64,000 bases of DNA. Source: Lingula anatina. Its lineage: Eukaryota > Animalia > Brachiopoda. Where the stretch lies: positions 9,742,954 to 9,806,953 of the forward strand of contig CM120644.1 in NCBI GenBank assembly GCA_051362555.1, written 5' to 3'. The notes below the pieces were generated by a model, which made no database searches, was not told the DNA's origin, and saw only the letters and a list, made by a program, of their open reading frames with translations. Shown piece after piece: positions 34,701 through 58,589 of this stretch (the first letter of the stretch is position 1; each line of letters starts with the position of its first letter). The position numbers and the translations under genes are program-made.

Positions 34701-37198
34701 TTTACAGTTATCAATTAATGCAATGTGTCATTGACTGGTGAACTTGTTGTTTTGATCTAGCTCAAGGAAGACAGACAAACACACATGTGGTTGGTTTTCA
34801 CAGAGAAGTTGACAAAACAGCTCCTCAAGGTAAGTGAATAGGGAATAAGTTCTCTTGCAAATAAGAACCAATTTGTACCATAAAGTAATATTTGTTTTTA
34901 TGTAGAAATAAAATTATGATAAATAATGTTACAATTTACAATTGTGGGTTAGTCTGTGATGATTTGAACTTTTTTCTAGCTCCTTAAAAAGCCCAACATG
35001 GATTCCACATTAGAAAGTGCCTGTGTAGCATGTCTGAAACAAGTGGAGTTTCAAGTATCAAATGCCATCAAGGAAGCAGCGGAATGCTCTGAATGTCCCA
35101 CTTTTGCCTTATGTCTAGATGCTTATTGTGCTTTACTACATGGAGGAAGATTGCAAGAAAACAATGAAAACATATCTGCCATGTGCCAGAGGTGTTTAAG
35201 GCTATTAGAAGAGGATGAAAGTAACCATGATATCCTTCAGTCTTGTTTGAACTTCATTAAGACTGTGTCAGAGGTTACTATAGATGAAGAGCTTGTTGAT
35301 AGTGCCTGGAAAAGTTGTCTTACTTGCTATAGAAGGCTGTTTGCCAATCAGGAATCAGGTGATCAAGAAACTGCCAATCAGGAATCTGGTGATACAAAAG
35401 CTGCCAGTCAAGAAAGTCGAAATTTAAAAACTACCAAGCTGAAATCTGGTGAAAAAGAAACTACCAACCAGAATACTGGTGTTGAAAGAAGTGAAAGTGT
35501 GAAATCTTCATTTTGTAACACTGGTAAAATGTTAAACAAAAAAGACATGGCAGAACTGAAAACTTCACAGACAAGTTGTGAATTTGAAGAAAAGCAGCTC
35601 CAGCAAGTCAGAGATTTATTGCTGGAAGTTCTAGTCACCATGTTGGAAAAGTGTAGCGTAGAACAGTTCCAATCACTACTCCATGATCTGATGGCCAGGA
35701 CCACTTATCCGTTCACACCATCTGTCCTTCATGTGTGGACCACCCTTGTTGACAGAGAGCTGGAGGAGACCAAGCTGCCGAGCCTGGCAGTCTCAGTGCA
35801 AAATCTAAACCTCTTGCTTCAGGGTGTGGCCCTTGATTTGCAGACGAAGACACCATTGCAACAGGGGTCTGGACTGCTGCCAGTTCTGCAGTTTGTAACT
35901 AAAGTTCTTTCACAGAAAAAGGTATGGTTCTTGACTTGGCTTGTTGCTGGATGAAATTCCCTAACTTGAATTTGAAATAATTGAAACGGAATAGATGATA
36001 ATTCATGTTATCTACCATTGATGGGTCTCTGAAGAATAGCACATGTTGAGATTTGCTGTAAAATTTACTTTGAAATAGTAACACATTGGGGGCCCATAAT
36101 GGTTCTATAGATGTTGGGGGTCACTGTGGTCATGGGCATGTTCAGTGATAAATGTATTTATGTTTCGTTTTGTTTGATTTAGATACAGTAAGAAAAACTG
36201 CCATATTTTCCCACTTTGTACCAGTAACTCTGTATTTTTCCCTTTCAGATCTTCCTGTCCTCACAGTCTGTTCTAGTCTGCCTTCACAGCTGTCTCTATG
36301 TTCCCCTCAAAGATCTCCAAGACCACACACAATTCTTTGAGATACACAAAGCAACTTATGATGTATTGAATGCTCTGCTGATTGACCATGCCAAAGTTTT
36401 GTATGGTGCTATACCAGTCTTCCAGCAAGCAGTTCGGAGCTTTATGGAAGCCATTTTGGAAGTTGGCTGGCAGAAACAAGATGGCGACTGCATTGTAAGA
36501 GGTGAAGAGGATGTGGTTGGGTGTGCTTTACTGGCCGATAGGTAATTAATCTTTGGTTGATTTTATTATAAAATTATTGTTATTATTATTAATGTTACTG
36601 TATAGGTCTTGTAATATTTCCTCAAAATAAAATTGCAGTATATAGAGACAATGATATTGGATTTACGTGCTTTGAATATCTCATCTCTCTATTTTGCTTG
36701 AGTTTTTTTGAAATTATTTTTCCAGACTTTTCTCACTGATGATCAGTCATAAGTCAGAGTTCAGCAAGGTGGTGATGTACCTGGTGGCAGACTATGTGCA
36801 CTACTTACAAAGGGGAACACTACGACCAGCTGTGAAAGTTAGCATTTCTACATCGCTTCTATCTCCTTAAAACATTTTGGTTTTTGTAAAATTTAAGAAA
36901 TGAATGAAATAGCCACAATATTGCCACATCAGCTTCATTATAAATAGAGATAGCAGTCAGTTGATATTTTAGAGAGTGGTGGTCGGTACCGTTTAACATT
37001 TGGAGAATAACCCTAAATCTCTGTTGTATTTTTATATTTCAGAAAGTACTGGTCAGCGCCATGTGTAAGCTGCTCAGTATATGTGACCAGCACTCCATAG
37101 CTGTACTACACACTGCATTGTCACAGGGAGCCAAGGAGATCTTTAAGGGACTGTATCAGGAATACGAAAAATATCACAAATATACTGGGCGGGTGTGA
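11195..37198 (+). CDS. URB2: Unhealthy ribosome biogenesis protein 2 homolog (multi-exon)
   Basis: First recognisable exon 11195-11345 (LHLKLKDRFLPWESKLKLARFVWASKGVVIPNKEQYVIDWL) matches the URB2 N-terminus. Last exon 37043-37198 ends LYQEYEKYHKYTGRV*, matching the Urb2 C-terminus. Approximate internal exons: 11608-11722, 12087-12224, 12461-12616, 12908-13035, 13390-13512, 13840-13925, 14237-14470, 14792-14905, 15397-15554, 15988-16091, 16498-16661, 16979-17170, 17541-17705, 18037-18245, 18508-18651, 21361-21438, 21769-21877, 27586-27858, 28286-28447, 34761-34829, 34980-35921, 36249-36540, 36726-36837. Start codon uncertain: an in-frame ATG at 11173 or an upstream exon. Confidence 0.88.
15295..15339. 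repeat. (GT)n microsatellite
   Basis: Pure TG dinucleotide run. Confidence 0.95.
16693..16750. repeat. (GT)n microsatellite
   Basis: Pure TG dinucleotide run. Confidence 0.95.
18802..21303 (+). mobile_element. Non-autonomous Helentron/DINE-1-like (HINE) element, family A copy 1, with 146-bp tandem array
   Basis: 5' ttattgtaccaccagc and 3' gctggtggtacaat subterminal inverted repeats. (ccggct)-type simple repeat near the 5' end, 3' stem-loop ggaggcggtatcgcctc, terminus ctagtt. 146-bp monomers at 19815/19961/20107 and 20548/20694/20840/20986. Near-identical copy at 30349-33483. Confidence 0.85.
22162..27563. mobile_element. ~5.4-kb decayed DNA transposon with ~1.1-kb inverted arms (Academ-like termini)
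   Basis: Termini tagtccatgagccaaa / tttggctcatggacta with a 3-bp ata duplication. Arms ~22162-23300 and ~26480-27563 are near-identical reverse complements (mirror ORFs 22168+ and 27348-). No intact internal ORF. Superfamily inferred only from the TAG terminus and 3-bp TSD. Confidence 0.75.
25705..25936. mobile_element. Palindromic MITE (family B), nested in the large inverted-repeat element
   Basis: Shares ggggagtctcacta..., ggggtaatta and gatcgatcta motifs with the copies at 29458 and 55262. Confidence 0.65.
29458..29690. mobile_element. Palindromic MITE (family B)
   Basis: catgcctagattgat...ggatcagtgtaactccctgggga.tctcacta / tagtgagattccccagggagttacactgatcc...atcaatctaggcatg. Confidence 0.85.
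30238..30348. repeat. Short dispersed repeat (also at ~40424-40540 and ~59325-59400)
   Basis: Shared ..accattggtaagtat(g/t)ggaaaattg..gtttactccaggaaaat.ca.ttttt.g.c..aaa.gaagagttatt. Confidence 0.65.
30349..33483 (+). mobile_element. HINE element, family A copy 2, with 146-bp tandem arrays
   Basis: Same termini and body as 18802-21303. Six monomers from 31378 and five from 32584. Lies inside the intron of the THAP transposon. Confidence 0.85.
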
Positions 37199-39017: not shown

Positions 39018-42000
39018 TCAACTTTCCATCCCAAAATATCCGTGATAAATGTTCTCCACAGAGGTCCAGTACTGCCACATTATGGCTGCTAGCATCATGC
39101 TACAGGAAACGTACAGAGGGAAGAACTGCCCACTAGAAGTATAGTCTTTGTCTGTGCAGCTCCGTTCTAACACTTGGTGGCAGCACCGTCTGGTGATATT
39201 CTGACTAGGGTCTGTACGTGGAATGGAATGAAGTATCTGAAACAGATTCGATATACAGGAATGAGCAACAGAAAATGATAAGGAAAAAGATCCATGTATA
39301 CTAGAAACTTTTTGCCCAGTCAGAATTAAAGGTAAATTGTTTTTAATCAGAAAATGATCATCAGAAGCAAATCAGTTGTTTTAATACAAGCACCTTTCAG
39401 GAGAATATCCTAAAGTTCACTAACAAAGCTCTAGTACTAGACGTACGTAACTTACAGTGCAGTACACATTATTTTTTCACTTTTCCGTGTCTAGCAAAAC
39501 TTAAACCAAGATCTTAACTACCCCTCTGATTAAATAATGAGGATACAAAATCGGACACCAGACCCTACCTGGGCAGTAAAATGGTACATAATGGCCTTGA
39601 CCCCCTCCAAACTGGTGGCATACATCATCATTCTGACGGCCTCGCCTTTTCTTATCTTAACCACCCCTGTGAACAGGCCTGGGTTATTGTAGCATCTCTC
39701 TAGTGTTCCTATAGCCATGACCTAGAGAGATAGGGGAGAGACAGATGTAGGCTAAGGCTGTCCACTACTAAGTACATGATTCAAAGAGTAGGTTAATATT
39801 TTGTGTGTTGCTTCAGAAAATTAATATAGTACATGTATAAGATAAATCCACAACAAATTTGTCAACAGTTTTAGATTAAAAGATTAATTGCAATACACTT
39901 TGAATGAAATAAGATAAATGATAATAATAATAATAAATTAAGAACATTTTATTTAATTAAGAAAGAATTCATGGAAAACAATAAACACAACATTAAAACT
40001 CAAATTCCATCTACTGTCGCTTACTTGAGGAATTGCACAAAAGTTGAAAACACTTTGATTTTTTATCCTGGACATATACAGCAGAACATCTGGCACATGA
40101 TGAAGAGCATTGGTCACCAAATCATTCAGACATGACAACGCAGCACGTCGGTTTGCCGGGTCAGCAAAGTCAGAAAGTTTATTGGCATACTTGCTCCAAA
40201 CCTATAAACATTTTAAAGGGATAATAACTATTCGTATGAGATCTATATTTCACAATAAAAAACCTTGTGAATAACTCATAGAAATATAATATATTCTGTT
40301 TTACCACAAAAACAGCAGGTATAGCTTTTATTCTGATATCTGAACTTGTCTTTAGACCACGTGACCTCCACTGATGTCTATACTCTGCAATTGGTTACAG
40401 TATGTAAGTTTTAAACTTTTTAGAAAAAAAACCAGGGACTAACTTTGAATGTAAATATTGATTCATTAACCATTGGTAAGTATTGGAAAATTGTTGTTTA
40501 CTCCAGGAAAATTCATTTTTGGGCTGAAACGAAGAGTTATTATTGCTTTAATAATAACAAATAAACTGACAATGACAATAATAGAGGAGGTAAGGTTAAC
40601 TGCATATATTACAGAAACCTTTGATTAAAAGAAAGCAATGAGTTATCACACCTAACACACTGGTCCTCACCTCCTTAGGCCAGAACTCACTCCCTTATTA
40701 TCACACCTAACACACTGCTCCTCACCTCCTTAGGCCAGAACTCCCTTCCTTGTTCTATGTCTTCAAGATAGTCTCGTATTATGTTTGTCTTCTGAAGGAA
40801 GAGTCCCATAGAATTTGCCAGCCTGGTATCCTGTCCTACTAAGCTATCTTCTAGTCCGGATGCAGAAAAGAGTCTGGAAAGGCCTATACCCACTAGCCCT
40901 GCTACGTAGTGGCAGTACTGAAATATAAATGTGTTAGGTGTGAAATGTCTAATGTGTTATACTTTTGAGGAATAAAAATAATCTAGAAATGCCTGTACCC
41001 ACCAGGCACCAGGCCTGCTAAATAATAAAGTTGCATTATGTGTGGTGATCATATTTTGTTTACACAAGAGGCAGAAATGAGTTTTGTCAGGCTGACAACC
41101 AAGTAAAAATGTCTGTCCCAAAATGATATAACTAATTTAAAATGAAAATATAATCTATACATACATGATGAAGTACATAATGTTGTAGTGTTAGGTGTGA
41201 CTGAATTGCGATATCACAACTATCATGCTACACACCTCATCCCACTGTTTTGTAGAATCAACATGGCCTTCTAGAAATACTGTCATACCATCTCCCATCT
41301 TGCAACAGATATCTGAGATCACCTCCTGGTACAGGGGGGCAAGCTGACGGAATTCATGAGAGATCTAGAAGGTTTAAAAAAAGAGACAAATTACAAATAC
41401 TTACATGAGAGGCCTGAATGAATGTGTGTTCAAAAAAAGTTCAAGTGCAAAATTAGTTTTTAAGAAATTAAATATAACTTGCTTCACAATGTGACAAGTT
41501 GTGTGCAAATTCCCATCATTTGACCTCGTCATAATTAAGCCCCATTTTAAAACTTACATACTGTAACCAATTGCATTTTACCTGGATAACAAAAGGATTT
41601 TCTCACATTCTGAATTCAGGATGAAAAAAGTACAAGAAAAAGGGACTCACAGTTGAAAAGTCCTCTAAAACTATCTTGTCCTTCTCCTTGCTGTCCATGA
41701 AACACCAGTCTGGCTCCTGTAGCTTGGTATAGAATGACCTCAGTAACGGCACCTTGACCTCCAGGGGTATTGTCATATCATCCTCCACTGTGTCTAGAGC
41801 TCTCAACACAAGATAGAATATACACACTGCATGTCTGGAATATTATTATAATAAAAAGTAATTCTTTGCAACTGATGCTCTCCACGAGGTACGTTCCCCA
41901 AAGGAGTGTAATTTATCTTGTCATCTTAGATCTAACACAAGCATGCACTGGTATCAATATTTGGTATTTTTTGGCTCGATGATTGTTTACTGTTTGTGCC

Positions 42001-42075
42001 AATTTTAAAGTAAAACAAAACTGGTTGACAGGGAATGAGTACAACATGTACCGGTAGGTAGCTTAATGAGCAAAT

Positions 42076-42114
<39 letters not shown>

Positions 42115-42691
42115 AAGAAGGGAGTGCCTATGTGTAACACAACATGACAAAATCTTTGTTCTTTAAATAATTTTTTTCATACCTGAGCTCCCTATCCAAG
42201 GCTTGAATGACTGCAGCAAAACTTCTACTTGTTTTGTTCAAGTACTCATAGCATTTTCTTAGCTGCGGTGACTCGTTTTTCTGAAAAGTTCACGTTTTCT
42301 TACAAAATGAACAACAGCCATACCAGTTTATGCTATATACAGTATTTAGAATAAATACCAGTACAGCTAGTATTAGTCATGGCCACGACACTACTAGTAG
42401 TTTCTTACATTTTATTGTATCAGAAAAACACTTCTTTATCCATCTACCACTCTTTTTCCTTTGCTTAAGACCACCTGCAATCTGTTAGCCTTGACAAAAG
42501 AGAATAAAGATTGCTCCCCCACCCCACCACCAAAAAATAATAATAAAAATACAAATAAAATTTAAAAAAAAAACTTTTTCACACATTCTTACCAAGTCAT
42601 TTTTGGAAATAACAGCCTGACAACCTCCGAATTTGTACTTCAAGAGTGCATACACTTCTTCAGGATAGCGTATAGACTTAACAAGATCCAT
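39018..42691 (-). CDS. FDFT1: Squalene synthase (farnesyl-diphosphate farnesyltransferase 1)
   Basis: Eight exons: 42691-42593, 42280-42183, 41834-41651, 41364-41236, 40917-40726, 40201-40025, 39721-39569, 39236-39018. Motifs [77 protein letters not shown], and a C-terminal TM anchor. Confidence 0.97.
40643..40742. repeat. Tandem duplication spanning the FDFT1 exon 5 splice donor
   Basis: ttatcacacctaacacactg.tcctcacctccttaggccagaactc occurs twice, about 56 bp apart. Confidence 0.8.
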
Positions 42692-43199
42692 CAGAGCGTC
42701 CTAGGGTGACATATGAGCCGCAACTGGACAACTAATATTATCCTCTGGTTGTGTAAGGTCGAAAAAAATCGTCTGCAACTGTGCACGCAACGCAATGGGT
42801 GGGGGGTGCTTAGAAAGGAGCTTCTCGTCGCAAACGCTGCCCAATTTCACAGACAGTTCGTTAGTTCTAAGCCCCGGGGTATGCGGTGTTGAAAATTAAC
42901 TAGACCCTCACTGGTCGCGCAAAACTCGGCAGACCAGAGGTCGGTTTTTATCACTCCTGAGTGCAAAACTCCGTTCACGCACATGTGTGTGATTGTTTAC
43001 AGAAATAAGGTGATTATGTCTCCAAGGATTTGATTAGTCGTTGGCAATCGTACCAGAATTTTTCTGGCCAATGATGTTAAGCGATTGACCGGCAATCAAC
43101 TTCCGGGCACGTGCGACAGCTACTTCCGCCAAAACAAAACTGCAGATTTCACTAAAAATATTTTTACTATCGGATTGAGGCACCTTTTTCTCTGTAGTA
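42692..43199. promoter_or_regulatory. Putative bidirectional promoter for FDFT1 and HSD17B7
   Basis: 508 bp, relatively CpG-rich, between divergent ATGs. NF-Y consensus GGCCAATGA at ~43066. Imperfect SRE-like ATCAC motifs (atcactcctg ~42950; reverse-strand atcacacac ~42985 and atcacctta ~43008). Confidence 0.65.
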
Positions 43200-46100
43200 A
43201 TGTCAGGAAAAGTTGCACTTATTACTGGGGCAAGTTCGTAAGTATATGAAAATCTCATGATGTAAATTGCAATTATATTTCAGTTAAGAAATGATGAAAG
43301 CATTATTTTTTGTTGTTGTTGCTAGAGTAGAGCATTTATTATAACGCGTATTGGTACACAGCACTTGCAGTATTACTGGTAGTAAAGAGGAAATTGCTAT
43401 TTTGCATGACTGACCGAAAATATATTTATACAAGCATGATTCTGGCAGTACCAATGCAGCTGCATTCGTAGTAACTTTGCATATGGATTTTTCATTGGCG
43501 TTTGAATGCATTGCCAGGCAAAATAATAGTTTTAATACACACGTGCAGAACCCCTGTGCAATGTATACTGGTACTTATTGTATGGTATTTCACATTAGAT
43601 TTTGATTTATAAAACAATAATTTGCCAACTTTCAGTCTTTTTTCGACCAGCCCCACTCAACCCTTTCAATATTGAGCACTATTGTATCTGGTACATTAAT
43701 GGTAACAATTACCAAGCAAATTTTGTGATTTCAGCTTAAAGTAACATAAGCAAATGATTAATTTGACATGCAAGTAAAATTTATTCTTAATTATCTTGTA
43801 CATGCAATAGTAGTTTTTTAAGGCATGTCATGTAGTTAATCATATAAGTTCACACACTCCAGAGTGATAGATCAAACCAGATACGTCTGTTGACATAAGA
43901 TATCTGTACATGTACTTAAACATAAAGATTTAAGATAATATATTTACAGTGGTATAGGCCTTGCACTGGCAGAGAGAGTGCTGACTGCCCACCCAGGGAT
44001 ACATCTCTGTCTGGCCTGCAGGAACCAGAGGCGGGGCGAAGCAGCGGTGGCCACCTTGAAGTTGTCCCACCCTGGGGCCGAGATAGACCTGGTCCTGGTG
44101 GATGTCAGCCGAGTGAGCTCTGTCCAGCAGGCAGTGGTGGAGATTAAGATGAGGTGGGTTGCTAGGTTAGTCGGACAAAGTAGTACATATGCTGTGTAAC
44201 TTATACTAGTGCTAGTATGATGTACTCAAACAATGTACAGGGACTTGTATCCATTCAAACAAGAGCTTAACTTGTAACGATTCTTTTGTCTATCTTACCA
44301 TCCAATATTTCATCTGCTTGCATTCAGATTTTGTCAGGGAATGAGATTGTGACAAGTATGACAATCTGTCACCCCCTCTGGTGTGCTATTTTGTCAGATC
44401 CCCCCCCCCCTTGCCAGCCCCTCCCTTAGCTAATGAAACTGTTCTACACAAGAGCTTAACTTACATTTAATGCCACATTATTATTATTATTATATTGTTG
44501 TTGTTGTTGTAATCTAACAAGTTCTAAACTCACACTTATAACCATTTTCATTACCACAAGTGACATTATTATTATTGTTGATGTTGTTGTAAAAGAATAA
44601 TTAAATACGAAAACTAAAGGCATTTATTATTCTAACTTTTATAGTTCATAACATAACATGTACTGTAACAAGATGTCCCTGGTGTATGAACAGCAATAAA
44701 CTTATTATTGTTATATTTATTTTGTGTGCTACAATAATTTTTTTTCTTCAGATATCAAAGACTGGACTATCTCTTTCTAAATGCTGGTGTTATGGGAGAA
44801 ACGAGGGTAAACTGGACAAACTTCTGGAAAGGGCTGTTTTCTGAGTGAGTTCTGAATTTTAGCACACAGTGGCCTTTCTTTATGACATGAATGGTTTCTC
44901 TTACATTTTTAGAAACCTATTTTTAGGGCAACCCTTCTTTTACACCATAACTATTGGCTGAAGGAGTTACAGCAACACCAAAAAGAATTTTAATTCAGTC
45001 ATGTTAAAACTTAATATTTTTATCATGCATAAACTGACGTGCTTACATGGTAATGTGGAAGTGTTTTGTACATGAAACCGAAAGAGATAACACAGTTCAA
45101 TTTTGTAAAACTAAATATTTATTGCACAAATTTAGCAATAGCAAATTCAATAACAGATTCCGGCAAATTATATAAAATTGTGCTAGATGAGATAGAAAAA
45201 AATGCTGCCTGCTGATTAGGTTTTGAAAGTGAAAAAATATGTAGCTCATTTCTGTTTACGTGCCTCAAATATACATAGACATATATATACCAAATTGCTA
45301 TTAAAGCTAACGATATCTGTCCAAATTTAAAAGCATTGGGTGTGACCGCCATATCCACAAGACAGTTAATGAAGATGTCTGTGCAGAGAAAATATTTTAC
45401 TTTATTTTTTTCAGAAATGTCTTCCACATGTTCCACACTGGTATAGGGCTGCTAGAGCATAAAGATCAAGTGACTGAGGAGGGGCTTCAAATGGTCTTTG
45501 CAACTAATATATTTGGGCACTTTGTGATGGTAGGTTCTATTATTATACTTATTTTACATATTCCTGAGGCTATGATCGAGAAAAGCTACAACTGATTGCC
45601 TTACACTAGCCAAAGAAATGGAGTCTACATTTTTAAAATAATTGTTAGATTAATTTTTATGTACAGACACAGATGTGTCTGTACATATAGCCATCATCTG
45701 TGTCTGTCGTCGCCGTCGTCGCCGTGCACTTTTACCGATAACACGATAAGTGGAAAACCATTTTACCTTTTGACTTGAAACTTGCAGAACTGATGAATAT
45801 TCATAATACGCAGGTCAAGTTCGAAAATCAGCATGATCGGGTCACTTTTAGGGAATTTATGCTGTTTTTTCACTTTTTTCAGCATATATGCAGCACCGAT
45901 AACACGATAAGTGGAAAACCATTTTATCTTTTGACTTGAAACTTACAGAACTGATGAATATTCATACTACGCAGGTCAAGTTCGAAAATCAGCATGATCG
46001 GGTCACTTTTAGGGTATTTATGCTGTTTTTTCACTTTTTTCAGCATATATGCAGCACCGATAACACGATAAGTGGAAAACCATTTTACCTTTTGACTTGA

Positions 46101-49100
46101 AACTTACAGAACTGATGAATATTCATAATATGCAGGTCAAGTTCGAAAATCAGCATGCTTGGGCCATTTTTAGGGAATTTATGCTTTTTTTTCACTATTT
46201 TCAATATAAATACAACACTGATAACACAATATAAGAAAAACGGATTAGCCAATTGTAATTATACTCACAGGAGTGGTCAATCTTACTAAAACGCAGGTTG
46301 AGTTCGAAAATCTGCATAATCGGGCCATTATTTTAGAAGTTATACTGTTTTTCACATTTCCTCAGATTCAATTATTAGGCATGTTAACAGTCTCATTATT
46401 TAACTAATAAGATACCTAAAAGTGTTTGTTTGATATTTCCTGCATCTTTACAACATTGTTAGTTGATTATGTAAAAAACATGGTAAACTTGTTATCATGT
46501 ATTGTGTAATAAATTGTCAAAAATGGAAATAAACTCATATCATTGCAGTTTGTCAGATTCAATCATCCACTATGTTCAGAATCTCAGAATGGAGGAAATT
46601 GGACATTTAACACTGTTCTATTGATACTTTTCCCATCTCATCAATTTTCTTAGTTGGTCATATAAAATGGCAGTAAAATGTTTATTTTGTTTTATGTTAA
46701 AAAAGTGTTAAAAATGGAAATAAACCCATTTCAGAACAGTGCTGTCTTGTTTACATTTTGGCATTTTCAAGGCGTGACTTTGAAGTTCCATGGGCCTGAA
46801 GACCTTGCTAGTCACATTTTCTGAATATCTGTGAAACAAATATTTTATAATTAAAAATTGATGGTCATTAAGCTGTTAAACATTATGTAATATTGCATCA
46901 AAATTTGAAGAAACCCCTATTTTGGGCACTGCTTCCATGATGACCATTTAAGGAAAATCATGTCACTTACTGTTCTCAAACTTACAGGAAAGAAACATGG
47001 GTCTAACATACAGCTTCAATAGGCAACGCAGTCTGTTTGGTAAATTTTTCTGGCAATTTAACAGTTTTTTTGTGAAAATTTAATTTTTCACTTATTTGCA
47101 TCTTTATTTTCTGTTCTTTGTCTGTACATTTGACAGCTTTGCTGCCTTGTTTTTACTACATGATGAATATTTAGTTTGTTAGTTTGAGATTAAGAAACAT
47201 TATTTCAAACATCTGTCTCGTATTGATTGTAACCTATAGCTAGCAGCAATGGTGTCTACAATAAATGCTTAGGGGCATTTTAATGGTAAATGGAACAAAT
47301 TGAGATTAGGATTTTTTAAGGGGAAAATGAATTAAAGCATCTCAGTCACTTAAGCATATAAACAAAAATCACTGTCACACTGGAGTCCACACATCATCAT
47401 CATCAAAGTCATCTTAAATTCACATGAATCGAGCCAAAACGAGGAACGCAGATGCCATTAAGCTTGATTGCAGGTTGGGAGCAGCACTGATGTATTGTAC
47501 GTGATCTGCAAGGTCGTAGATCCCTTTCTCGCATGCTGACACACTTCTCAATACCTCAGGCGGCTTGAACACTGGGTCAAACGAAGGGATGATCTTTCTC
47601 AACTTGCCCTGAAATATTGCAATTTTTGTATTGGTTTATTTGATGCATTACTTAGGAGTGAAACAGGTGCTAGGTTTTTCTATAATACATATTTTGGGTA
47701 TCATTTACACCTTATTACAAAATGGTCCAATATGCTCCCACTTCTCAAAAAAACTGTATGTGTGAAAGTGAGCCCCTGTTAATATTCATCAGGACTAAGT
47801 TGAAAATGTAGAGTGAAATTCTTGGGACAGTGTGTTAGGTGTGGCACTGTGTTAGGTGTGAAAGTGACAGTGTGTTTGATGTGCCACTGTGTTAGATGTG
47901 ACACTGTTACTTGACATAGTGTGTTAGTGTGACAATGTGTTAGGTGTGAAGTTGAAGTTGTAAAGTGTGTTGAGTTGTGATAGTGTGTTAAGTGTGAAAA
48001 TTTGCTAGATGTAACAGCTTGTTAGGTGTGAAGTTGGTAAGTATGGAACTGTGTTAGATGTGACAGTGTGTTAGGTGTGACATGGTATTTAAATCCCCAC
48101 CTGCATACAAGGATCATTCATGACTGGTTCAACAATTTCATGGCACTTCCTTGAGCAGTGTCTTCCATCTTGTATATCACAGACCTTCTGAAACTCTCCA
48201 TTTGTCTTCACATTGTCAAGCACTCTGTAGTACTTTCCCAAGTCACAGTTTCCAAATGCTTGAAGGTAAAATTTTTAAGTTGTTGACTACAGCTGACAAT
48301 TGCAATGCAACTTTGATATTTTAAAAAAATTGAAATACAATGACATGAAGATCTCAACAAAAAAGATAAAATCCAGATGTAAATCAAGATGAATTTGCTC
48401 AGTTGAAAGTTTAAAAGAAATAAATGGCCAGGAGTAAGGTCAAGGAGCAATTCCCTCCTTCTTACAGTTGTAAGATTTTACATGAGAAATCTTTTTGATG
48501 CATTAAAGAAGCTTTTATTAGTAGAAACATGGAGATAAAAGTAAAGAATAATGGAAATAAAAAACAGTTACCTTGACCCCCACAACTGTCATAATTGTCA
48601 AACTGGACACAGTCTGGATTGTTGGACTGCAGTGGATGGTAGCTGATGAGAGCAAAACACATTTCATCCTGAAATATAGAGCAAGCACTGACAGATTAAG
48701 AGACCATTGACATACAATGTAGGTTAAACCAGGTACCATCATAGTTAATTTTATAATTGTAACACTCAGTTTTCTATTTTTTTAAGCATATGAACAATAT
48801 CTATTGTGCCAGATAAGGAAATGCTTGAATTTGTACTTATTTCATGCTAAAATCCGACAAATAACACCTTTAAAAGGTAGTTATATAATAAAAAACCAAT
48901 CAGGGATGTCTTTCTCTCCCCTGCCAACACTGGAAGCAATGTGACTGATTTGGCCTGATTTTCCTACCTGTGTTCCTAGCCCAAAATAGGTTGTGTTGGC
49001 ATGTCGCTGCTTTTTACCACGCTTTGAGGTAAATGTACAATATGTGCGGAACTCATCACCTGCAGAAAAAACAATTTGGTTTTTTATTATCTCTCTTTAT

Positions 49101-49768
49101 AACTGTATAACTTTATTCACTGCTTTGAGGTAAATGTACGATATGTGCGGAACTCATCACCTGCAGAAAAAAACAATTTGGCTTTTTATTATATCTCTTT
49201 ATAACTATATAACTTTCTTCACTGTTTATTTAGAACAACAAAGAAAAACATTTTCTGGGGAAAATATTCTTATATAACATCAATTACCTTAATCATTTGG
49301 ACGGTTAAAGTAAATCTTGGTCTCAAAATACCAAAGTAATACAACATGTTCTTGATTTAAAAAAAAACTACCTTTTTTAAAGACAATGGGAGGGTCAAAG
49401 GTGTGCAAATTCGGTGTCTCGTAGGTATAGTATGGATCGTCTGCTACAACTCTCAGTAGTTTGCCATCTCTCCATTGCTCTAGTTTCCCTGCTATACCTG
49501 GGGAAATATAGCAAAATAACACACCTTAATATTTTTATATTTGAAAATATTTTAATATTTATTATAATTATAACACACTAAATATTTTTCTTGGAAATTA
49601 AAAATTTAATGACTGCCTACTGTATCATTTAAAAAATATTTTTCTCTCATTTTTACATGCTTAGGTACCAGCATTATAATATGAAACTGTTAGTCTTCTC
49701 ACCAATACTTTTTATTTGTTAAGGAAAATTTTAAAAAATTAAAATATGCTTCCAAAATGGCTTGGGAT

Positions 49769-49817
<49 letters not shown>

Positions 49818-50188
49818 TTTTGTTTTGTTTATTGTCTGTACATTTGTAAGCTTTGCTGTCTGTTTACTGTAGTAATACTAATTCCAATAAATGGTTGTGT
49901 TGTTGTATACACAGTACCTTGATAATGCATGTGCATAAGAACTGCTGTCACATTAATGTCCTGATTAAACTTCTCCTCGGTACACTTGGACTGGCACACC
50001 CCGGACATGGTCAAACTGTCCACTCCTGGGGGGATCTCCAGTGCATACTGACCAAATGCCGCTGTTCCCTCAGAGAACGGGCGTAGCTGGTCAGTGTAGA
50101 ACATGCGCATTCCGGAGTTGTCTGGAATTTCAGTTCAATTTTTAACCTTTATTGTTGATGAATTTTTAAGGATGATACACACATGTAG

Positions 50189-50235
<47 letters not shown>

Positions 50236-53200
50236 AAATACATTTGTAAAAAAAAGTCTCACATAAGCGTCTACAGGCCCAAACATACTCACCATGCATT
50301 ATTCTATTATAAAAATTAAAGAATGAAATTTAATTTTAAAAAATAAAATTTATTTAAAAAAATTAAAAATTCAGCATTTACTTCCATACAGACCAGTCAG
50401 ACATTGTCATATGAAAATTTATTGTTGACATTGAAAATGTTTTCTTAAGCGAAGTTCTCTTTACACACCCTTGTCATCTAACGCTGTGTCATCACATTAT
50501 AATGGTGTGACAGGGATGGTAGCCCACTAGGAACCATAGTTTGCGCCCCATTAATGTGTACAGGTGACTGACATTCATCCCATATACTAAACCCCATACT
50601 CTTACATACGTGTACCCTAACCTGTACTAATCATATGGGACCCAGGTCTTGAATTCCTGTACTAGGACTACCATCGGCATTTTTGTCACACCGACATAAC
50701 ATTGAAAAATTCTCAGGAATGTACAGCCTACCTGTGTAGTCTGATCTCAGCTCTGGGTTGTTCCAGTGTATTTCTACAGCCAGATATTCATACGAGCCAT
50801 TCCCAAATGGAATCCCTGTATTCTTTGAAAGGCAGTAGCCCTCCATCCCAGTGGACCAAACTGTTAGTAATTGCTGGCACTCACGAACCATGTTACATTG
50901 ATGGGGGCCCTGTTTATTTGAAAACGATTCAGTTATTGATAATATATCTACTTTAGATCTACAGTAATCGGATAAAAACAAAGTGAAACAGAAACCCGCA
51001 TAGCAGCCGTAAACCCTATGGCTGCAAAATTGGCCTGATTATGACGAATTGACAAAATGTATTTTTATACACCAACAAAACATAATAGAGATGAAACACA
51101 GGCGAAAAATACGCCGTGACGATTAACATTTTATTCAACTGGGGATCTTTGGTGGATCAAAGATTTAACTACTTTTAACACATTTATTTAAATATGCCAC
51201 AAAGTAAAATGTCTGGGTTAATTACCATTCTCTGCGGCTTTTTCGAGCACCCATAAACAGTCATGTGGTGAAGAACCATGATGTTGCCAATAATGGGTTC
51301 AAACGCGACAGCGTGGTACCTTTTATCAGTTGGAACCTGCAAGGAAACGATGAATGCCGGTGTATGATCAAAATATGGACATATGCCTAGATTTATAATA
51401 TGCCTATTTATATATATATTGTTATGTACGAACCCTGCTACATCTGCACATGTACTTGTTGGTAATTTTCACTACATATACTTGCCTTGCATTCTATGGC
51501 AAGTTCTCCTTAATTTTTTCCTCTCTTCCCCCAAATTGAAACTGTTATTATAATTATTGTTTGAAAAACGCCAGCTGTATGATTACCTTGAAAACATTAC
51601 ATATGTAAGTCGTTTCCACTGCTGGTACTGAGGTTTCTGGAAACCTGAGGTCAAAGGTCTTCACGTGTGACTCCTTGGTAGCGGTGCAGTTGTATTCTCC
51701 CTGGCATTCGTAAGTGAAATTCTGAACACGACGACAATGTGCTGAGTCCACCGGTTCACAAATACCTGAGGAAGCAAGTTGACTTTAATTACCTCTGAGA
51801 AGGAGATTTGGTTTTTTCTTTGTTTTGTCCGTTACCAGTTTAACGCAAAAAATAATAAAAGATGTTGTTGAAATTTAAGGATACGCCACAAATTGATCAA
51901 GGAAGAATTGACAAGATTTTGGCGACCCTTTAATTTATTAACTAATTATTTACTAAAAGGAACTAATTATTTACAAAAAGAAATGAACAAATTTTGACTA
52001 AATCTTTAGGCTAGGTCACAAATGGGCCAAGGAAGAAATTATTACATTTCGGTGATGACTCATTAATAAATTAATGGTAAATTATAAGTAAATTAACCGT
52101 ATATTAATTAACGGTGTATTATTAGTTGTATTATTTGTCTTGACTGATGTCTGTGAGTGCTCTTGTTCCGTATTGAAAAAACACATTTTCAGTATGTATT
52201 TTATCGTTCAATTCAGCGGTTTTTAGTTTCAAATATACATTGTAATTTTAATTATTACCAGGGTGCGTAATATTTTCGGTCCTTAGAACGGCCGAGGCCG
52301 AGTTTTCTTGCCAGGCACAGTTAGGGTCTCCAAGTTCTTCACCGTTCGTCTTCCCGTCCTGATCAGAGTCCTTCCTGCACAGCTCAGGGGTCCACTGGTA
52401 ATTAGCGGCCTTAAAGTCCTGAAGAGGAACAATATTTCTAGTAATAACCGTATTATAAAGAAATATTTTCACGGACTCATTTCGGTCTTATTGTAACGAT
52501 TTGACAAAATGCATTTTAAATACACCAACCAACAATACATATAATAGAGATGAAACACCTGCGAAGTCAGTGTCTTAGTTATTAACACTATTGCAATATC
52601 TTTGAGACGACAATTGGACATTATGGAGAAGACAATGGAAATTCTACTGGATCAATAAGTTAATAGGTAATTAAAAAAATATTGATCAACTGAATGGGGG
52701 AGGGAGGGTGGTAAGACTGATAATCAAGAAACGCTGAAGGTTTATGTATGTCAAAGGTGATTTGAACGGCGGTCCATACAAAAAGATTTCTTCTCATTTT
52801 GGTCTAAGATAAGATAAGATAAAACTTGGTAAATAACGCACTGTCGGTAATTGTGTCGGATTATTTATTAGAATTGTTCAGGTACCTTGTTCATTGTTCA
52901 GATTTGTACCATTAGGTCACCATTTAAAATAGAAAAAAATTAGAGAATAAATAAGTTAATTGATAAACAAGAAACTTAATTAGTCCCGCCGTAAAAAATC
53001 AACAGATGAAGACAATCCGTGAAAATTAATAAGTGAAAAAAATGTTTAGGAAATTGGATTGAGAACAACGAAATGCATCAATTAAAACAAAGACATTGAT
53101 GACATATGTTGAAGAGAGAACGCTGTATAAAATCTAGGGTCCAAGAGATATCTTGCATCCTAAATGAAATAAGTCAACTTACCAGTCCAAACTGGTTATT

Positions 53201-56200
53201 CGGCTGTCCTCCTGCCAACTTGACATGTCCCAATGCCAGCCATTTGGTGTTCTCCTTGCATGGGTGGGGGACGTTCTGGCCGTTAGGAAGCGTATTACCA
53301 TAGTAGGGGTAGGCACTAGAAATGGTTATAATCGTTGCGAAAGTCGCCGCAAAGCATCCCATGCGTATCGCCATGTTTCGGTAACGGGACTGGGTTTTGT
53401 TCTTGGTTCTTGTTGAGTCGTTGAAGTGCTAGTAAATATTACAGGTAGATTCGACAGACGCTGTCCCGCCTAGACCGACTTCCTGGACTCTTTGAAATAC
53501 TTAATTCCTGAAATAAGGCAATTTTTTACAAATTAAATAACTCTGATGGCACAAAACCAAAGCTAATCTCCAATTCTTGTAAACTGATGTCCCGTGTGCG
53601 CTTGTAGCTGTTTCCCGTGCTACCGTCTTTTAATCTTAACGAAAGGGCACACCTTCTTTTAACCCTGTCGCTATCACGTGGGTTAACACACCTTTCCTGA
53701 CAAGGATTTATTTTAAGTCCTAACGTCAGGGCAGGGGAGTATTAAGACAGAGGACAAACATAGTGGAAAAACATATCCTGGTGTTTGCCCCTCCACAAGC
53801 AGAACTAAACCTTCAAAAGCCGATCTGGCAGCAAATGCCCTCTTTCCATTGTTTTATTTATTTTATTTTTCAATTTATTTATTTGTTTGCTAGGTTGGTT
53901 ATTTATTTATTTACTTTATTGTTAAACATTTGTTACTTATTAGTTATGTTTTATATTGTGTCCTGTGTAGTACGTGAAACAACGTGGATTAAATTTGAGA
54001 GCTGATAACCTTTACAACGGTCACTCAGCTACTCTTCTAATACAAGCATTGTGAAATATTTGGTTTGTCTTCGTAAAATCGTTACCCGGCCTCAAATAAG
54101 TGTGAAAATTCAGGTTCTCTGCTACTGTTGTAATACAAGCATTGTAAAATCTTTCGTTTGTCTTCATAAAATCGGTACCCATACCTCAAATAAGTGTGGA
54201 AAATTCAGGTCATAACTTGGTGGAAGCTTTGGTATTTCCTTGGATGTTGCAACATATTTGACGTCATTCGTTGTGCGCATTGAAAGAAATTGCGTTAAAC
54301 CGAATTGTCCCTGCAAATATCTCTCTAAAACCCTTAGTACCCATCGGCTTCTTATGCGTTTAACTTTTAGTAAGCCCCCTTTTTTCGCCCTAATAGATGT
54401 ACATTTAAGCGCGTCTAAATACCTCAATATCTTTTAAATATGTTAAAGGAATAAGAAACGCATTACTTACCTACCAGTTCGATATTTGGGTCACCACTCT
54501 AGAGTGACGCGCCGTCAAGTGCTACGGCGTTTCCACATGTCAGTGATAATGAAGGGGTCATGGCCGCATTAAGGGAACAGTGCCTAAAATAAAGTTGACG
54601 CACTGAGCACATGGAGAATGTAATGGTTGATATTTTATTAAGTGTTTCTGAAGCATGTGATGACAAGATTTGATGATTGCGCCTTTAAGCCCAAGTTCTA
54701 TGTATTTTTAGGGAAGTTTGGGCACTCACACACAAACACGTTCCCAATTCTATAACCTGCTGAGGTTATTGGTTTGGTATTTAAATTATTTAAAAAGACT
54801 ACACACTTCCCATTTGAAGACAGTAAGAAAGAATAATTAATAATTATGCAATTTATTTACTTTTCCAGATAAAAGAATTAGAAGATATTCTTGGTGGCAG
54901 CCAGCCAACTCAGGTCATATGGTCGTCTTCTAGTAACGCGTGCAAGGACACCTTCAGTTTTGATGACATTCAGCACCGAAGAGGGTAAGAATGAATCTCA
55001 TATTATATATTTGTAAATTATGTAACATATGTAAATTGTTAAGTATGGCCACCGATTTCTTAATCTCAAACGCGTCAAAATGCCTTTTACTACTTTTTTT
55101 TTAATTGTCGGAGTATTATGGGATATGCCCAGGAGTAGATTTTGCACTTTAAAGATATAATAGGGTAAATATAGATACAGCGGAACATGAACCCTTTGTA
55201 TTTATGTAATTTAGTACGAACAGTTTGAGATTATGAATCCACCATGAAAATTCAGTACTTCTAAGGGACCATTCCCACGTATTTGGATCAATCTATCTCC
55301 CTGGGGAGTCTCACTAAATTGCTATCAACTTAACGGCTTAAATGTCTGTCACGCCTAGTAAAGTTGTCAGGGGGTAATTATCTTCAGCCCCTAGCTGATT
55401 TGGTAGGCGTGACAGACAATTAAGCTGGTTAAGTTGATACCAATTTAGTGAGACTCCCCAGGGAGTTAGACCGATCCAGATGGATCGATCTAGCCATGGG
55501 TACCCATTCTTAAAATGCCTTTCTTTTTCCAGGACGTCTGCGTATAGCTCGTCTAAGTATGCCACGGACATGCTAAGTCTAGCACTCAACAAAACACTTA
55601 ACAAAAAGGTACGCATATTGTAATAAGTCATATTTCTAGTGAAAGTCCATTTTGTGTTTTGAGGAGCATAATTTTCCTTCTGTTAGGACTGAAAACTCGA
55701 TTCAATTGTTGAAAAGAGGGGGCAATTTTTATATATCAATTAATTTTTATTTTGACATTTAACTTTTTTTGTTTTCAGAATATTTATTCCCACGTCACCA
55801 ACCCAGGTATAGTAATGTCTAACATGACACACGGTATCATGCCGTCCTGGTTCTGGACCTTAGCAATGCCAATACTCTTCTTGGTAAGATTCATGCCTCT
55901 AGCTCGCTCTCTTTTTCCCTCTCTCTCTCTCTTTTATTTTTACTTGTTATTTTCTTCTTTTTTTTTTTTTTTTGTGATAAAAATACTGATTTAAGAGAAT
56001 TTATGGACACATCATAAGAGCAGTGTCCGTTATCACTTTAGTAAAAAAAACTGGAAGAAATATAAGTGTATAAACCTATTTGATTAATACTGTTTTCGCG
56101 ACTTAATGTGTGCTGCTTTGCAATTCTTTTGTTTACAAGTATACACTGTTCATAAACCCGCTTGCTGTAAACATATGCAAAATTGGATTTGTTAACAATG

Positions 56201-58589
56201 AAAAGTTCCGCGTGCTTTTCTGTGTTATTATGGCGCAATGAGAATGGCTTTTTATGTACAGACACAGATGTGTCTGTACATATAGCCATCATCTGCGTCT
56301 GTCGTCGCCGTCGTCGCCGTCGGCGCCGTCGTCGCCGTCGTCGCCGTGCACTTTTACCGATAACACGATAAGTGGAAAACCATTTTACCTTTTGACTTGA
56401 AACTTGCAGAACTGATGAATATTCATAATACGCAGGTCAAGTTCGAAAATCAGCATGATCGGGTCACTTTTAGGGAATTTATGCTGTTTTTTCACTTTTT
56501 TCAGCATATATGCAGCACCGATAACACGATAAGTGGAAAACCATTTTACCTTTTGACTTGAAACTTACAGAACTGATGAATATTCATAATACGCAGGTCA
56601 AGTTCGAAAATCAGCATGATTGGGCCATTTTTAGGGAATTTATGCTGTTTTTTCACTATTTTCAATATAAATACAACACTGATAACACAATATAAGAAAA
56701 ACGGATTGGCCAATTGTAATCATACTCACAGGAGTGGTCAATCTTACTAAAACGCAGGTTGAGTTCGAAAATCAGCATAATCAGGCCATTATTTTAGAAG
56801 TTATACTGTTTTTCACATTTCCTCAGATTCAATTATTAGGCATGTTAACAGTCTCATTATTTAACTAATAAGATGCCTAAAAGTGTTTGTTTGATATTTC
56901 CTGCATCTTTACAACATTGTTAGTTGATTATGTAAAAAACATGGTAAACTTGTTATCATGTATTGTGTAATAAAGTGTCAAAAATGGAAATAAACTCATA
57001 TCATTGCAGTTTGTCAGATTCAATCATCCACTATCATCAGAATCTCAGAATGGAGGAAATTGGACATTTAACACTGTTCTATTGATACTTTTCCCATCTC
57101 ATCAATTTTCTTAGTTGGTCATATAAAATGGCAGTAAAATGTTTATTTTGTTTTATGTTAAAAAAGTGTTAAAAATGGAAATAAACCCATTTCAGAACAG
57201 TGCTGTCTTGTTTACATTTTGGCATTTTCAAGGCGTGACTTTGAAGTTCCATGGGCCTGAAGACCTTTGCTAGTCACATTTTCTGAATATCTGTGAAACA
57301 AATATTTTATAATTAAAAATTGATGGTCATTAAGCTGTTAAACATTATGTAATATTGCATCAAAATTTGAAGAAACCCCTATTTTGGGCACTGCTTCCAT
57401 GATGACCATTTAAGGAAAATCATGTCACTTACTGTTCTCAAACTTACAGGAAAGAAACATGGGACTAAAATACAGCTTCAGTAGGCAATGCAGTCTGTTT
57501 GGTATTTTTATTTATTTATTTATTTATTTTGGCAGTTAAACAGTTTTTTGTGAAAATTTAATTTTTCACATATTGGCATTTTCAAGGTGTGACTTTAAAG
57601 TTCCATGATCTTGAAGACTTTTGCTTGTCACATTTTCTGAATGTCCATGTTACTAATATTTTATAAATAACATTTGATTGTCATTATGCTGTTAAACATT
57701 ATGTAATGTTGCATCAAAATTTGAAGAAACCCCTATTTTGGGCACTGCTCCTATGATGACCATTTAAGGGAAATCATGTCACTTACTGTTCTCAAACTTA
57801 CAGGAAAGAAACATGGGTCTAACATACAGCTTCAATAGGCAACGCAGTCTGTTTGGTAAATTTTTCTGGCAATTTAACAGTTTTTTGTGAAAATTTAATT
57901 TTTCACTTATTTGCATCTTTATTTTCTGTTCTTTGTCTGTACATTTGACAGCTTTGCTGCCTTGTTATATTATTTCTCCATATATTTGTCAACCCTGCTG
58001 TTAAATTTTAGTGTTGTATGGCGTACATTATTTCCTTTCAGCTCCGATTCTTTATATGTAGTGCTACCATAGATACATACAGCGGATCCGAGTCGTTGGT
58101 GAGTATTGGCGATGTCACGGTGTGGGGGCGGGGCGTCCTGCGTGGTCGGATTAGCTGAAGACAAATAGCGCAGAATTCATTTTCTCCTTTTACGTCTTCT
58201 CTTAAATCCAAAATATGGGATCTTCGAGGTTCTGACTTGGCACATCGCCGATTTATTTTTACCGTTAAGTAAATTTTCTGATTGCTTTAGGTGTGGGTTT
58301 CCCAACAAGACCCGAAGTCTTTGGACTCTACGTTCAAATACCATAGCTCTGTAACAGGATTTGGCAAATTGTACACAACACCCAAAAAGGTAAGGAATCG
58401 GTTCTTGATTGTTTTTATTTACACATTCATATCTGACAGAAGAAAATTTCACACATTGATTCATTTGTTGATATTTTTTCTCTTTTTTTTCCTCAGCTTA
58501 CCGACCTAGATGAAGAGTCATCTTTACGTCTCTTAGAACAGTTAGAACAACTGAATGAAACTGTTCAAAGAAAGCTGAAATCACAGTGA
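43200..58589 (+). CDS. HSD17B7: 3-keto-steroid reductase / 17-beta-hydroxysteroid dehydrogenase 7 (ERG27 ortholog)
   Basis: Exons 43200-43237, 43950-44153, 44752-44844, 45415-45529, 54869-54984, 55533-55608, 55779-55883, 58042-58098, 58291-58389, 58497-58589. Motifs MSGKVALITGASSGIGLALA, LCLACRN, RLDYLFLNAG, VFATNIFGHFVM, WSSS, YSSSKYATD, KYHSSVTGFG. Confidence 0.95.
45654..47151 (+). mobile_element. HINE-like element, family C copy 1, with 161-bp tandem repeats
   Basis: 5' tttttatgtacagacacagatgtgtctgtaca hairpin, then (gtcgcc)n, 161-bp units at 45734/45895/46056, and 3' tgtctgtacatttgacagctttgctgccttgtt stem-loop. Confidence 0.85.
47420..53374 (-). CDS. Temptin-domain copper type II ascorbate-dependent monooxygenase (DBH/MOXD1-like), nested in HSD17B7 intron 4
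   Basis: Exons 53374-53183, 52418-52259, 51765-51587, 51336-51226, 50909-50732, 50121-49918, 49497-49372, 49059-48968, 48668-48572, 48258-48101, 47608-47420. Signal peptide; temptin motifs LPNGQNVPHPC..W..LGH...GG..N.FGLDF and LCRKDSDQDGKTNGEELGDPNC.W; Cu ligands LHHM, EIHWNN, HMH, DEMC; hydrophobic C-terminus. Confidence 0.9.
47828..48082. repeat. Degenerate minisatellite of GTGTTAGGTGTG-like units
   Basis: Repeated tgtgttag(g/a)tgtga motifs. Confidence 0.7.
49021..49224. repeat. ~101-bp tandem duplication of a splice acceptor and exon start
   Basis: gctttgaggtaaatgtac.atatgtgcggaactcatcacctgcagaaaa...ttcactg occurs twice. Confidence 0.85.
54029..54210. repeat. ~93-bp imperfect tandem duplication
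   Basis: ctact..t.taatacaagcattgt.aaat...tttgtcttc.taaaatcg.taccc..cctcaaataagtgtg.aaattcaggt occurs twice. Confidence 0.7.
55262..55500. mobile_element. Palindromic MITE (family B)
   Basis: ctccctggggagtctcactaaattg.tatcaacttaac..cttaa.tgtctgtcacgccta with its reverse complement downstream. Confidence 0.85.
56249..57966 (+). mobile_element. HINE-like element, family C copy 2
   Basis: Near-identical to 45654-47151, with a longer (gtcgcc)n, one fewer 161-bp unit and an extra ~360-bp internal duplication. Confidence 0.85.

What the first reader, a model, noticed from the sequence alone, without database searches (positions are those of the whole stretch)
39018..58589. Two non-homologous sterol-biosynthesis genes (FDFT1, HSD17B7) head-to-head 508 bp apart
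Seen: divergent ATGs at 42691 and 43200, with a CCAAT box and ATCAC-type motifs between them. Known: FDFT1 catalyses the first committed sterol step, HSD17B7 the 3-keto reduction in C4-demethylation; in mammals both are SREBP targets, and in human they lie on different chromosomes. Pathway gene clustering is rare in animals. Inference: a co-regulated mini metabolic cluster under one sterol-responsive bidirectional promoter, and evidence of de novo sterol synthesis in this invertebrate.
Basis: partly seen in the sequence, partly recalled or inferred. Interest (0 to 1): 0.75.

Follow-up and report, generated by a model that had tools for sequence, protein, structure and literature searches.

The report
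Brachiopod sterol genes sharing one promoter
In the lamp shell Lingula, two unrelated, intact cholesterol-pathway genes are read in opposite directions from start points about 130 bases apart, likely from one shared general-purpose promoter; the pairing was absent in the other animals that could be checked, and cholesterol-sensitive joint control is untested.

Summary
Observation confirmed. FDFT1 (minus strand, 8 exons, 416 aa) and HSD17B7 (plus strand, 10 exons, 331 aa) are intact and spliced, with ATGs 508 bp apart; their closest database proteins are from Lingula anatina. An independent DNA run spans the spacer. RNA reads show divergent transcription, with the outermost 5' ends about 133 bp apart, so a compact bidirectional promoter is likely. 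The sterol-responsive cluster idea is weaker. ATCAC, CCAAT and SRE-like matches are at chance level; the clearest signal is two ETS/GABP-type sites, typical of ordinary divergent promoters. The ratio of FDFT1 to HSD17B7 reads differs strongly between runs. The link was not found in 9 of 9 vertebrates, a snail, a tubeworm, a leech gene model, or 9 of 9 informative invertebrate contigs; in one contig FDFT1 faces ACMSD instead. Other brachiopods, phoronids and nemerteans were not testable. Lingula's sterol gene set was already tabulated in 2018. One lead remains: a published tubeworm table puts LSS, CYP51 and part of HSD17B7 on one scaffold. The scan had not noted this pair before on other DNA. 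Verdict: real, probably lineage-restricted same-pathway head-to-head pair; moderate-low interest.

The parts
39018..42691 (-). FDFT1 (squalene synthase), 416 aa; coding exons 42691-42593, 42280-42183, 41834-41651, 41364-41236, 40917-40726, 40201-40025, 39721-39569, 39236-39018; DTVEDD and NIIRDYLED motifs intact
   Evidence: splice joints in RNA
42692..42993 (-). FDFT1 5' UTR as covered by RNA reads (about 300 nt; holds two upstream ATGs and two of the three ATCAC 5-mers)
   Evidence: (X13 stranded, X20)
42994..43126 (.). Read-free gap of 133 bp between the outermost 5' ends: inferred shared core promoter. Holds an SRE-like ATCACCTTAT (43005-43014, 2 mismatches), a forkhead-like TGTAAACA (42994-43001), GGCCAATGA (43066-43074), ETS-type CGGAAG (43100 and 43123) and CACGTG (43108)
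   Evidence: motif names recalled, except the GABP consensus from PMC2077898
43127..43199 (+). HSD17B7 5' UTR as covered by RNA reads (about 73 nt, no upstream ATG)
43200..58589 (+). HSD17B7 (3-keto-steroid reductase), 331 aa; coding exons 43200-43237, 43950-44153, 44752-44844, 45415-45529, 54869-54984, 55533-55608, 55779-55883, 58042-58098, 58291-58389, 58497-58589; TGASSGIG, NAG and Y193xxxK197 intact
   Evidence: joints exon 1-2 and exon 3-4 in RNA
42692..43199 (.). 508-bp ATG-to-ATG spacer, GC 46%, CpG observed/expected 1.0 against a window median of 0.49
47423..53377 (-). Nested antisense gene in HSD17B7 intron 4: temptin-like domain plus copper type II monooxygenase N- and C-terminal domains (ends approximate, model not finished)
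34980..37195 (+). 3' exons of URB2, convergent with FDFT1 (flanking gene, not a sterol gene)

Best explanation
Two intact sterol-pathway genes of Lingula, FDFT1 and HSD17B7, are transcribed in opposite directions from 5' ends about 130 bases apart, likely from one shared CpG-rich promoter driven by general factors (predicted: ETS/GABP, NF-Y, E-box), in an arrangement that likely arose in the brachiopod line. Shown: gene structures, splicing, divergent strands, approximate 5' ends, spacer contiguity in a second DNA run. Inferred: a rearrangement set HSD17B7 against the FDFT1 promoter, which faces a different gene (ACMSD) in another invertebrate. One open, nucleosome-free region would then serve both genes and couple their on/off state, while their levels are tuned separately (different UTRs, upstream ATGs in the FDFT1 UTR, mRNA stability, gene-proximal elements). 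Any SREBP input would be a modest extra layer and is untested.
For: Stranded runs X12-X15 put FDFT1 exons and 42692-42991 on minus-strand RNA and HSD17B7 exon 1 on plus-strand RNA; no read lies in 42994-43126 in 4 of 4 runs (50 reads). The spacer is CpG-rich. Two CGGAAG sites lie in the 142-bp core against 0.06 expected (P 0.003); the 64-kb window has 5 in all; RRCCAATSR P 0.026, CACGTG P 0.03. GABP and CCAAT motifs mark ordinary human divergent promoters, and about 10% of human genes are in such pairs (PMC2077898, abstract and passages). Link absent elsewhere: different contigs in 9 of 9 vertebrate species with contig lengths in both lists; Pomacea 34,737,321 vs 34,494,602 bp; Lamellibrachia luymesi SQS on SDWI01000012.1, HSD17B7 on other scaffolds; the Helobdella HSD17B7 model is fused to an upstream R3H-associated domain; no HSD17B7 exon 1 or 2 in 9 of 9 metagenome contigs with at least 600 bp upstream of the FDFT1 ATG; in L010 the divergent partner is ACMSD. 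Read ratio FDFT1:HSD17B7 was 4:5, 0:10, 7:3, 16:5 (chi-square P 0.0006), and junction reads were 2:24 in X12 vs 16:9 in X18 (P 3e-5).
Against: A same-pathway head-to-head pair is rare by chance in a given genome: my rough estimate for 12-20 sterol genes is 0.0002-0.004 (assumed inputs), which argues for selection on co-regulation. One SRE-like 10-mer (8 of 10) lies 12-21 bp beyond the FDFT1 5' end and about 55 bp from a good CCAAT box, and SRE plus CCAAT is the mammalian sterol-gene signature (PMC4811486 passages). The expression test is weak: few reads, mates not independent, tissues and stages unknown to me, different libraries, and X18-X20 are only 90-95% alike to the window. RNA-seq ends are not start sites. 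The motif P values are post hoc and not corrected for the several motifs tried. The closest relatives were not tested, and most contigs give only 0.6-1.2 kb upstream, so a wider-spaced pair would be missed.
Confidence: 0.55

Rival explanations
1. A selected, sterol-responsive mini-cluster: SREBP with NF-Y binds the shared core and raises both genes together when sterols fall, as at MVK-MMAB.
For: 5' ends about 133 bp apart, so any bound factor sits near both. SRE-like ATCACCTTAT and a CCAAT box lie in the gap. Low chance of a same-pathway pair. Lingula keeps most of the post-squalene genes. Precedent: MVK-MMAB share SREBP2 and NF-Y sites (PMC8575900 passages). A tubeworm table lists LSS, CYP51 and one HSD17B7 piece on one scaffold.
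Against: SRE-like matches are at chance level; the window holds 231 matches with up to 2 mismatches against 279 expected, and its one perfect match shown lies at 17110, far from the pair. Two of the three ATCAC lie inside the transcribed FDFT1 UTR. The read ratio swings more than tenfold between runs. No conservation was found in any other animal tested.
Confidence: 0.3
2. Two separate promoters that merely abut, each driving one gene, with no shared element.
For: The varying ratio, including 0:10 in X14. The ETS and E-box sites sit at the HSD17B7 end; the forkhead-like and SRE-like sites sit at the FDFT1 end.
Against: About 133 bp leaves little room for two independent proximal promoters (inference). 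Both genes are expressed in 7 of 8 RNA runs laid.
Confidence: 0.13
3. Assembly artefact or misannotation: the genes are not really adjacent, or one is a different enzyme.
For: Repeats lie in nearby introns. DNA run X3 might be the source of the assembly.
Against: One X3 contig spans both first exons with 5 substitutions. RefSeq proteins that differ from the window at 5 residues lie on one contig. Identities agree across Pfam, PDB, named homologues and the Atlas.
Confidence: 0.02

Closest known systems
MVK-MMAB head-to-head pair (human; PMC8575900, passages read)
   Same: A sterol-pathway gene on a divergent promoter with NF-Y-type sites; shows that SREBP2 can drive both directions.
   Different: MMAB is not a sterol enzyme, and SREBP2 control is shown by ChIP and reporter assays there. 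Here both genes are sterol enzymes and the SRE evidence is at chance level.
PPAT-PAICS purine pair (PMC2871058, table row read: 70 bp apart, conservation score 0.43)
   Same: Two non-homologous enzymes of one biosynthetic pathway on a very short divergent spacer.
   Different: PPAT-PAICS is conserved across many eukaryotes; this pair was found only in Lingula. 'sterol', 'FDFT1' and 'ERG9' do not occur in that paper's main text.
Ordinary GABP/NF-Y divergent promoters (PMC2077898, abstract and passages)
   Same: Starts under 1 kb apart, CpG-rich, with CGGAAG and CCAAT motifs.
   Different: Partners are usually functionally unrelated (recalled). The two sites here (CCGGAAGTT, GCGGAAGTA) are not the strict CCGGAAGTG consensus, and binding is untested.
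Bacterial sterol gene clusters
   Same: Squalene synthase next to other sterol genes.
   Different: Operon-like, intronless, several early steps; unrelated in origin to this intron-rich animal pair.

Membership tests
Squalene synthase (FDFT1) | SQS_PSY domain with two aspartate-rich motifs and orthology to animal FDFT1 | tested here: met
   DTVEDD at 80, NIIRDYLED at 215; 58-72% identity to 11 invertebrate FDFT1s
HSD17B7 / 3-keto-steroid reductase | SDR motifs (TGxxxGIG, NAG, YxxxK) and closest relatives HSD17B7 | tested here: met
HSD17B7 / FDFT1 | Enzyme activity | not testable with these tools
   no assay
Bidirectional (head-to-head) gene pair | Opposite strands, transcript starts under 1 kb apart | tested here: met
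   outermost reads at 42993 and 43127
Bidirectional (head-to-head) gene pair | One DNA fragment drives both directions through shared elements | not testable with these tools
   needs a dual reporter
SREBP-regulated promoter | SRE above chance, next to NF-Y or Sp1 sites | tested here: inconclusive
   best SRE 8 of 10, P 0.12-0.14; one good CCAAT box; no GGGCGG box
SREBP-regulated promoter | Response to sterol depletion or SREBP binding | not testable with these tools
   no such data reached
Metabolic gene cluster | Three or more non-homologous pathway genes together (definition recalled) | tested here: not met
   Flanks are URB2 and a nested monooxygenase; no LSS, CYP51, SQLE, NSDHL or DHCR motif in six frames of the window; no curated Pfam hit in 36 further candidate frames
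Metabolic gene cluster | Co-expression | tested here: inconclusive
   Both expressed in 7 of 8 RNA runs, but the ratio varies strongly; low counts
Conserved microsynteny (like PPAT-PAICS) | Same pair in other phyla | tested here: not met
   other brachiopods, phoronids, nemerteans, chitons and limpets not tested

The most novel reading that the evidence does not exclude
Sterol-synthesis genes are repeatedly drawn together in lophotrochozoan genomes (FDFT1-HSD17B7 on one 130-bp SREBP-responsive core in Lingula; LSS-CYP51-HSD17B7 on one scaffold in a tubeworm), either as remnants of an ancestral animal sterol cluster or by convergent selection: operon-like organisation of a core animal pathway.
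Probability: 0.13. Interest if true: 0.75.

Novelty: new member of a known kind. Interest (0 to 1): 0.36.

Why it matters
Same-pathway gene pairs on one promoter are few in animals, and my ten searches listed no paper on such a pair of two sterol enzymes. A 133-bp core between the first committed sterol gene and a late one is a small, tractable reporter for a question that a 2025 perspective treats as unsettled for molluscs (PMC12350143, parts 1-2 of 4 read): how lophotrochozoans make and regulate sterols, and by extension whether SREBP senses sterols outside chordates. If the pair is an accident of one lineage, it is a tidy example of gene shuffling at a housekeeping promoter and little more.

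Tried and rejected
No genome is held for this window, so I could not survey other sterol genes or SREBP/SCAP/INSIG in Lingula. The run search listed no indexed RNA holder; raw-read runs were laid instead. The FDFT1 pattern found nothing in prokaryote genomes. The metagenome loci could not be extended. Of the 36 loci, 25 lack FDFT1 exon 1 and were dropped, and 2 more (L006 250 bp, L026 540 bp upstream) are too short to count. L035 was left out of the tree. Same-species pairs were sought through accession and contig look-ups on 30 proteins: only Pomacea gave a clean invertebrate pair. Amphioxus accessions XP_002611932 (HSD17B7) and XP_002588446 (an SQS hit labelled otherwise) are far apart, but assigning the second to amphioxus is from recall, so it is not counted. 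Vertebrates lacking a contig length in one list (5 species) were not counted; my notebook's '10' is corrected to 9. Ten paper searches listed no paper on this pair. Zhang et al. 2019 (MBE) is not held. Supplement searches were blank for PMC4595640, PMC13121700 (3 files; its large spreadsheets, which may hold expression data, were unreadable), PMC8848322 and PMC5440852 (12 of 42 files searched); the supplement of PMC12350143 was unreadable. PMC12965858 and PMC5421315 (passages) gave no gene positions. Eight look-ups in earlier findings gave no note on this pair. The bacterial promoter scan is not applicable. No HSD17B7 representative among the best 150 is fused to FDFT1. I did not run complex or structure predictions, since I make no binding claim.
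Full report
Observation. The sequence shows an ATG at 42691 on the minus strand and one at 43200 on the plus strand, with 508 bp between them. Exon models built from coordinates give an open 416-aa FDFT1 (8 exons, to 39018) and an open 331-aa HSD17B7 (10 exons, to 58589); all 16 introns are GT-AG. FDFT1 exon 5 hits Pfam SQS_PSY and human squalene synthase in the PDB. Protein searches returned Lingula anatina 3-keto-steroid reductase P0001, identical to the HSD17B7 model, and Lingula squalene synthase P0122, 5 residues different. Both are on a 430,084-bp contig, with accessions 21 apart. Catalytic motifs are intact and the two families are unrelated. A contig from DNA run X3 spans 42582-44321.

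Transcription. I laid 8 of the 9 raw RNA runs listed. In the stranded runs, reads over FDFT1 exons and over 42692-42991 come from minus-strand RNA, and reads over HSD17B7 exons come from plus-strand RNA. At 24-bp resolution (4 runs, 50 reads) the FDFT1 side reaches 42991-42993 in X13 and X20, the HSD17B7 side begins at about 43127-43135, and nothing lies between. Loose ends at 43237 and 42593 read into the second exons. So FDFT1 has a 5' UTR of about 300 nt, HSD17B7 about 73 nt, and the untranscribed core is at most about 133 bp. RNA-seq ends only approximate start sites.

Promoter anatomy. The spacer is GC- and CpG-rich for this window (46%, o/e 1.0 vs median 0.49). Two of the three ATCAC fall in the transcribed UTR. 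In the 142-bp core the stronger signals are two CGGAAG sites (P 0.003; 5 in the whole window), three CAATC (P 0.005), one RRCCAATSR (P 0.026) and a CACGTG (P 0.03), all post hoc and uncorrected. GABP and CCAAT motifs are the usual signature of divergent promoters (PMC2077898, abstract and passages).

Co-expression. Both genes had reads in 7 of 8 runs; X14 had none on the FDFT1 side. FDFT1:HSD17B7 first-exon reads were 4:5, 0:10, 7:3 and 16:5 (chi-square P 0.0006; study against study P 0.0004, or 0.014 with counts halved for mates). One junction per gene gave 2:24 in X12, 2:2 in X15 and 16:9 in X18 (X12 vs X18 P 3e-5). This argues against lock-step control. It is thin evidence: tissues are unknown to me, libraries differ, and X18-X20 come from animals 90-95% alike to the window.

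Conservation. Nine vertebrate species had contig lengths in both hit lists, and 9 of 9 carry the genes on different contigs. In the snail Pomacea they are on different 34-Mb contigs. In Lamellibrachia luymesi SQS maps to SDWI01000012.1 and HSD17B7 to other scaffolds (PMC10077716 Table S2, read whole). The Helobdella HSD17B7 model is fused to an upstream R3H-associated domain, so its 5' neighbour is another gene. A pattern for animal FDFT1 exon 2 with its splice donor found 36 metagenome contigs. None has an HSD17B7 match; 11 hold exon 1; 9 of those have 601-3804 bp upstream, and 9 of 9 lack HSD17B7 exons 1 and 2, while the same tests find them in the window. These nine are not independent: five belong to one six-member clade, and the other four are separate (L010, L020, L034, L035; tree and best hits). 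In L010 the divergent partner, with its ATG about 845 bp away, is ACMSD. Other brachiopods, phoronids, nemerteans, chitons and limpets could not be tested.

Chance. With 12-20 sterol genes, 30,000 genes and 10-25% of them in head-to-head pairs, a within-pathway pair is expected 0.0002-0.004 times per genome (inputs assumed). That is unusual for one pathway in one genome, but not across many pathways and a scan of many genomes, so conservation or regulation would have to carry the case, and neither does yet.

No larger cluster. The flanks are URB2 and a nested antisense temptin/copper-monooxygenase gene in HSD17B7 intron 4. Recalled motifs for LSS, CYP51, SQLE, NSDHL and DHCR found nothing in the window, and six loose histidine-box matches were not followed up; 36 further frames gave no curated Pfam hit.

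De novo synthesis. Table S18 of PMC6018497 (read whole) already lists SQE, LAS, CYP51A1, TM7SF2, SC4MOL, HSD17B7, EBP, SC5DL, DHCR7 and DHCR24 for Lingula, with NSDHL only as the paralogue SDR42E1. HSD17B7 is also kept by bivalves that lack SQE, LAS and CYP51 in that table, so it is a poor marker; FDFT1 is the better one. The capacity is therefore inferred from gene content and is not new. I found no labelling experiment.

Comparison. It works like MVK-MMAB in layout (PMC8575900, passages) and like PPAT-PAICS in pairing two enzymes of one pathway (PMC2871058, table row). It meets the definition of a head-to-head pair. It does not meet those of a metabolic gene cluster or of conserved microsynteny, and membership among SREBP-driven promoters is open.

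Lead. The tubeworm table places lanosterol synthase, CYP51A1 and one of two HSD17B7 transcript pieces on scaffold SDWI01001111.1. The HSD17B7 cell repeats the LSS cell exactly, so it may be a copying slip; the paper's main text has no mention of scaffolds. The LSS-CYP51 co-location would remain even so. If real, sterol genes pair up more than once in lophotrochozoans, which is the novel case.

Verdict. Real, expressed, apparently unreported in the library searched, probably lineage-restricted: a new member of a known kind. Interest 0.36.

Noticed in passing
window 47423-53377 (-): Multi-exon gene nested antisense in HSD17B7 intron 4: signal-peptide-like start, temptin-like domain (PF24784) and two copper type II monooxygenase domains.
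   Followed up: partly
window 45654-47151 and 56249-57966: Two near-identical copies of a 1.5-1.7-kb element with 161-bp internal tandem units in HSD17B7 introns 4 and 7, probably a non-autonomous transposon.
   Followed up: partly
window 40213-40551: Very high-copy repeat in FDFT1 intron 5, abundant in RNA on both strands.
   Followed up: no
PMC10077716 Table S2: LSS, CYP51A1 and one HSD17B7 piece listed on one Lamellibrachia scaffold, SDWI01001111.1; real linkage or table slip.
   Followed up: no
L010 1088-2966 (-): ACMSD lies head-to-head with FDFT1, ATGs about 845 bp apart.
   Followed up: yes
L001, L002, L019, L021, L026, L027, 80-220 bp upstream of the FDFT1 ATG: Conserved promoter block: two opposed CCAAT-like boxes, a GTGAGCTGGTG-like element, CAGCTGG and GTAAACA. 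GTAAACA occurs upstream of FDFT1 in 9 of 12 loci including Lingula (42994-43000), a forkhead-type site by recall; post hoc.
   Followed up: partly
window 42984 and 42712 (-): Two upstream ATGs in the FDFT1 5' UTR: an out-of-frame frame of at least 30 codons and a three-codon in-frame one.
   Followed up: no
window 2836-6981 (-): Exons with several ubiquitin-like domains and a protein kinase domain, plus an exon with a single membrane-spanning-like stretch; possibly an IRE1/RNase L-like gene (name from recall).
   Followed up: no
runs X18-X20: Reads labelled as the same species are only 90-95% alike to the window even in coding exons, which suggests a distinct population or cryptic species.
   Followed up: no
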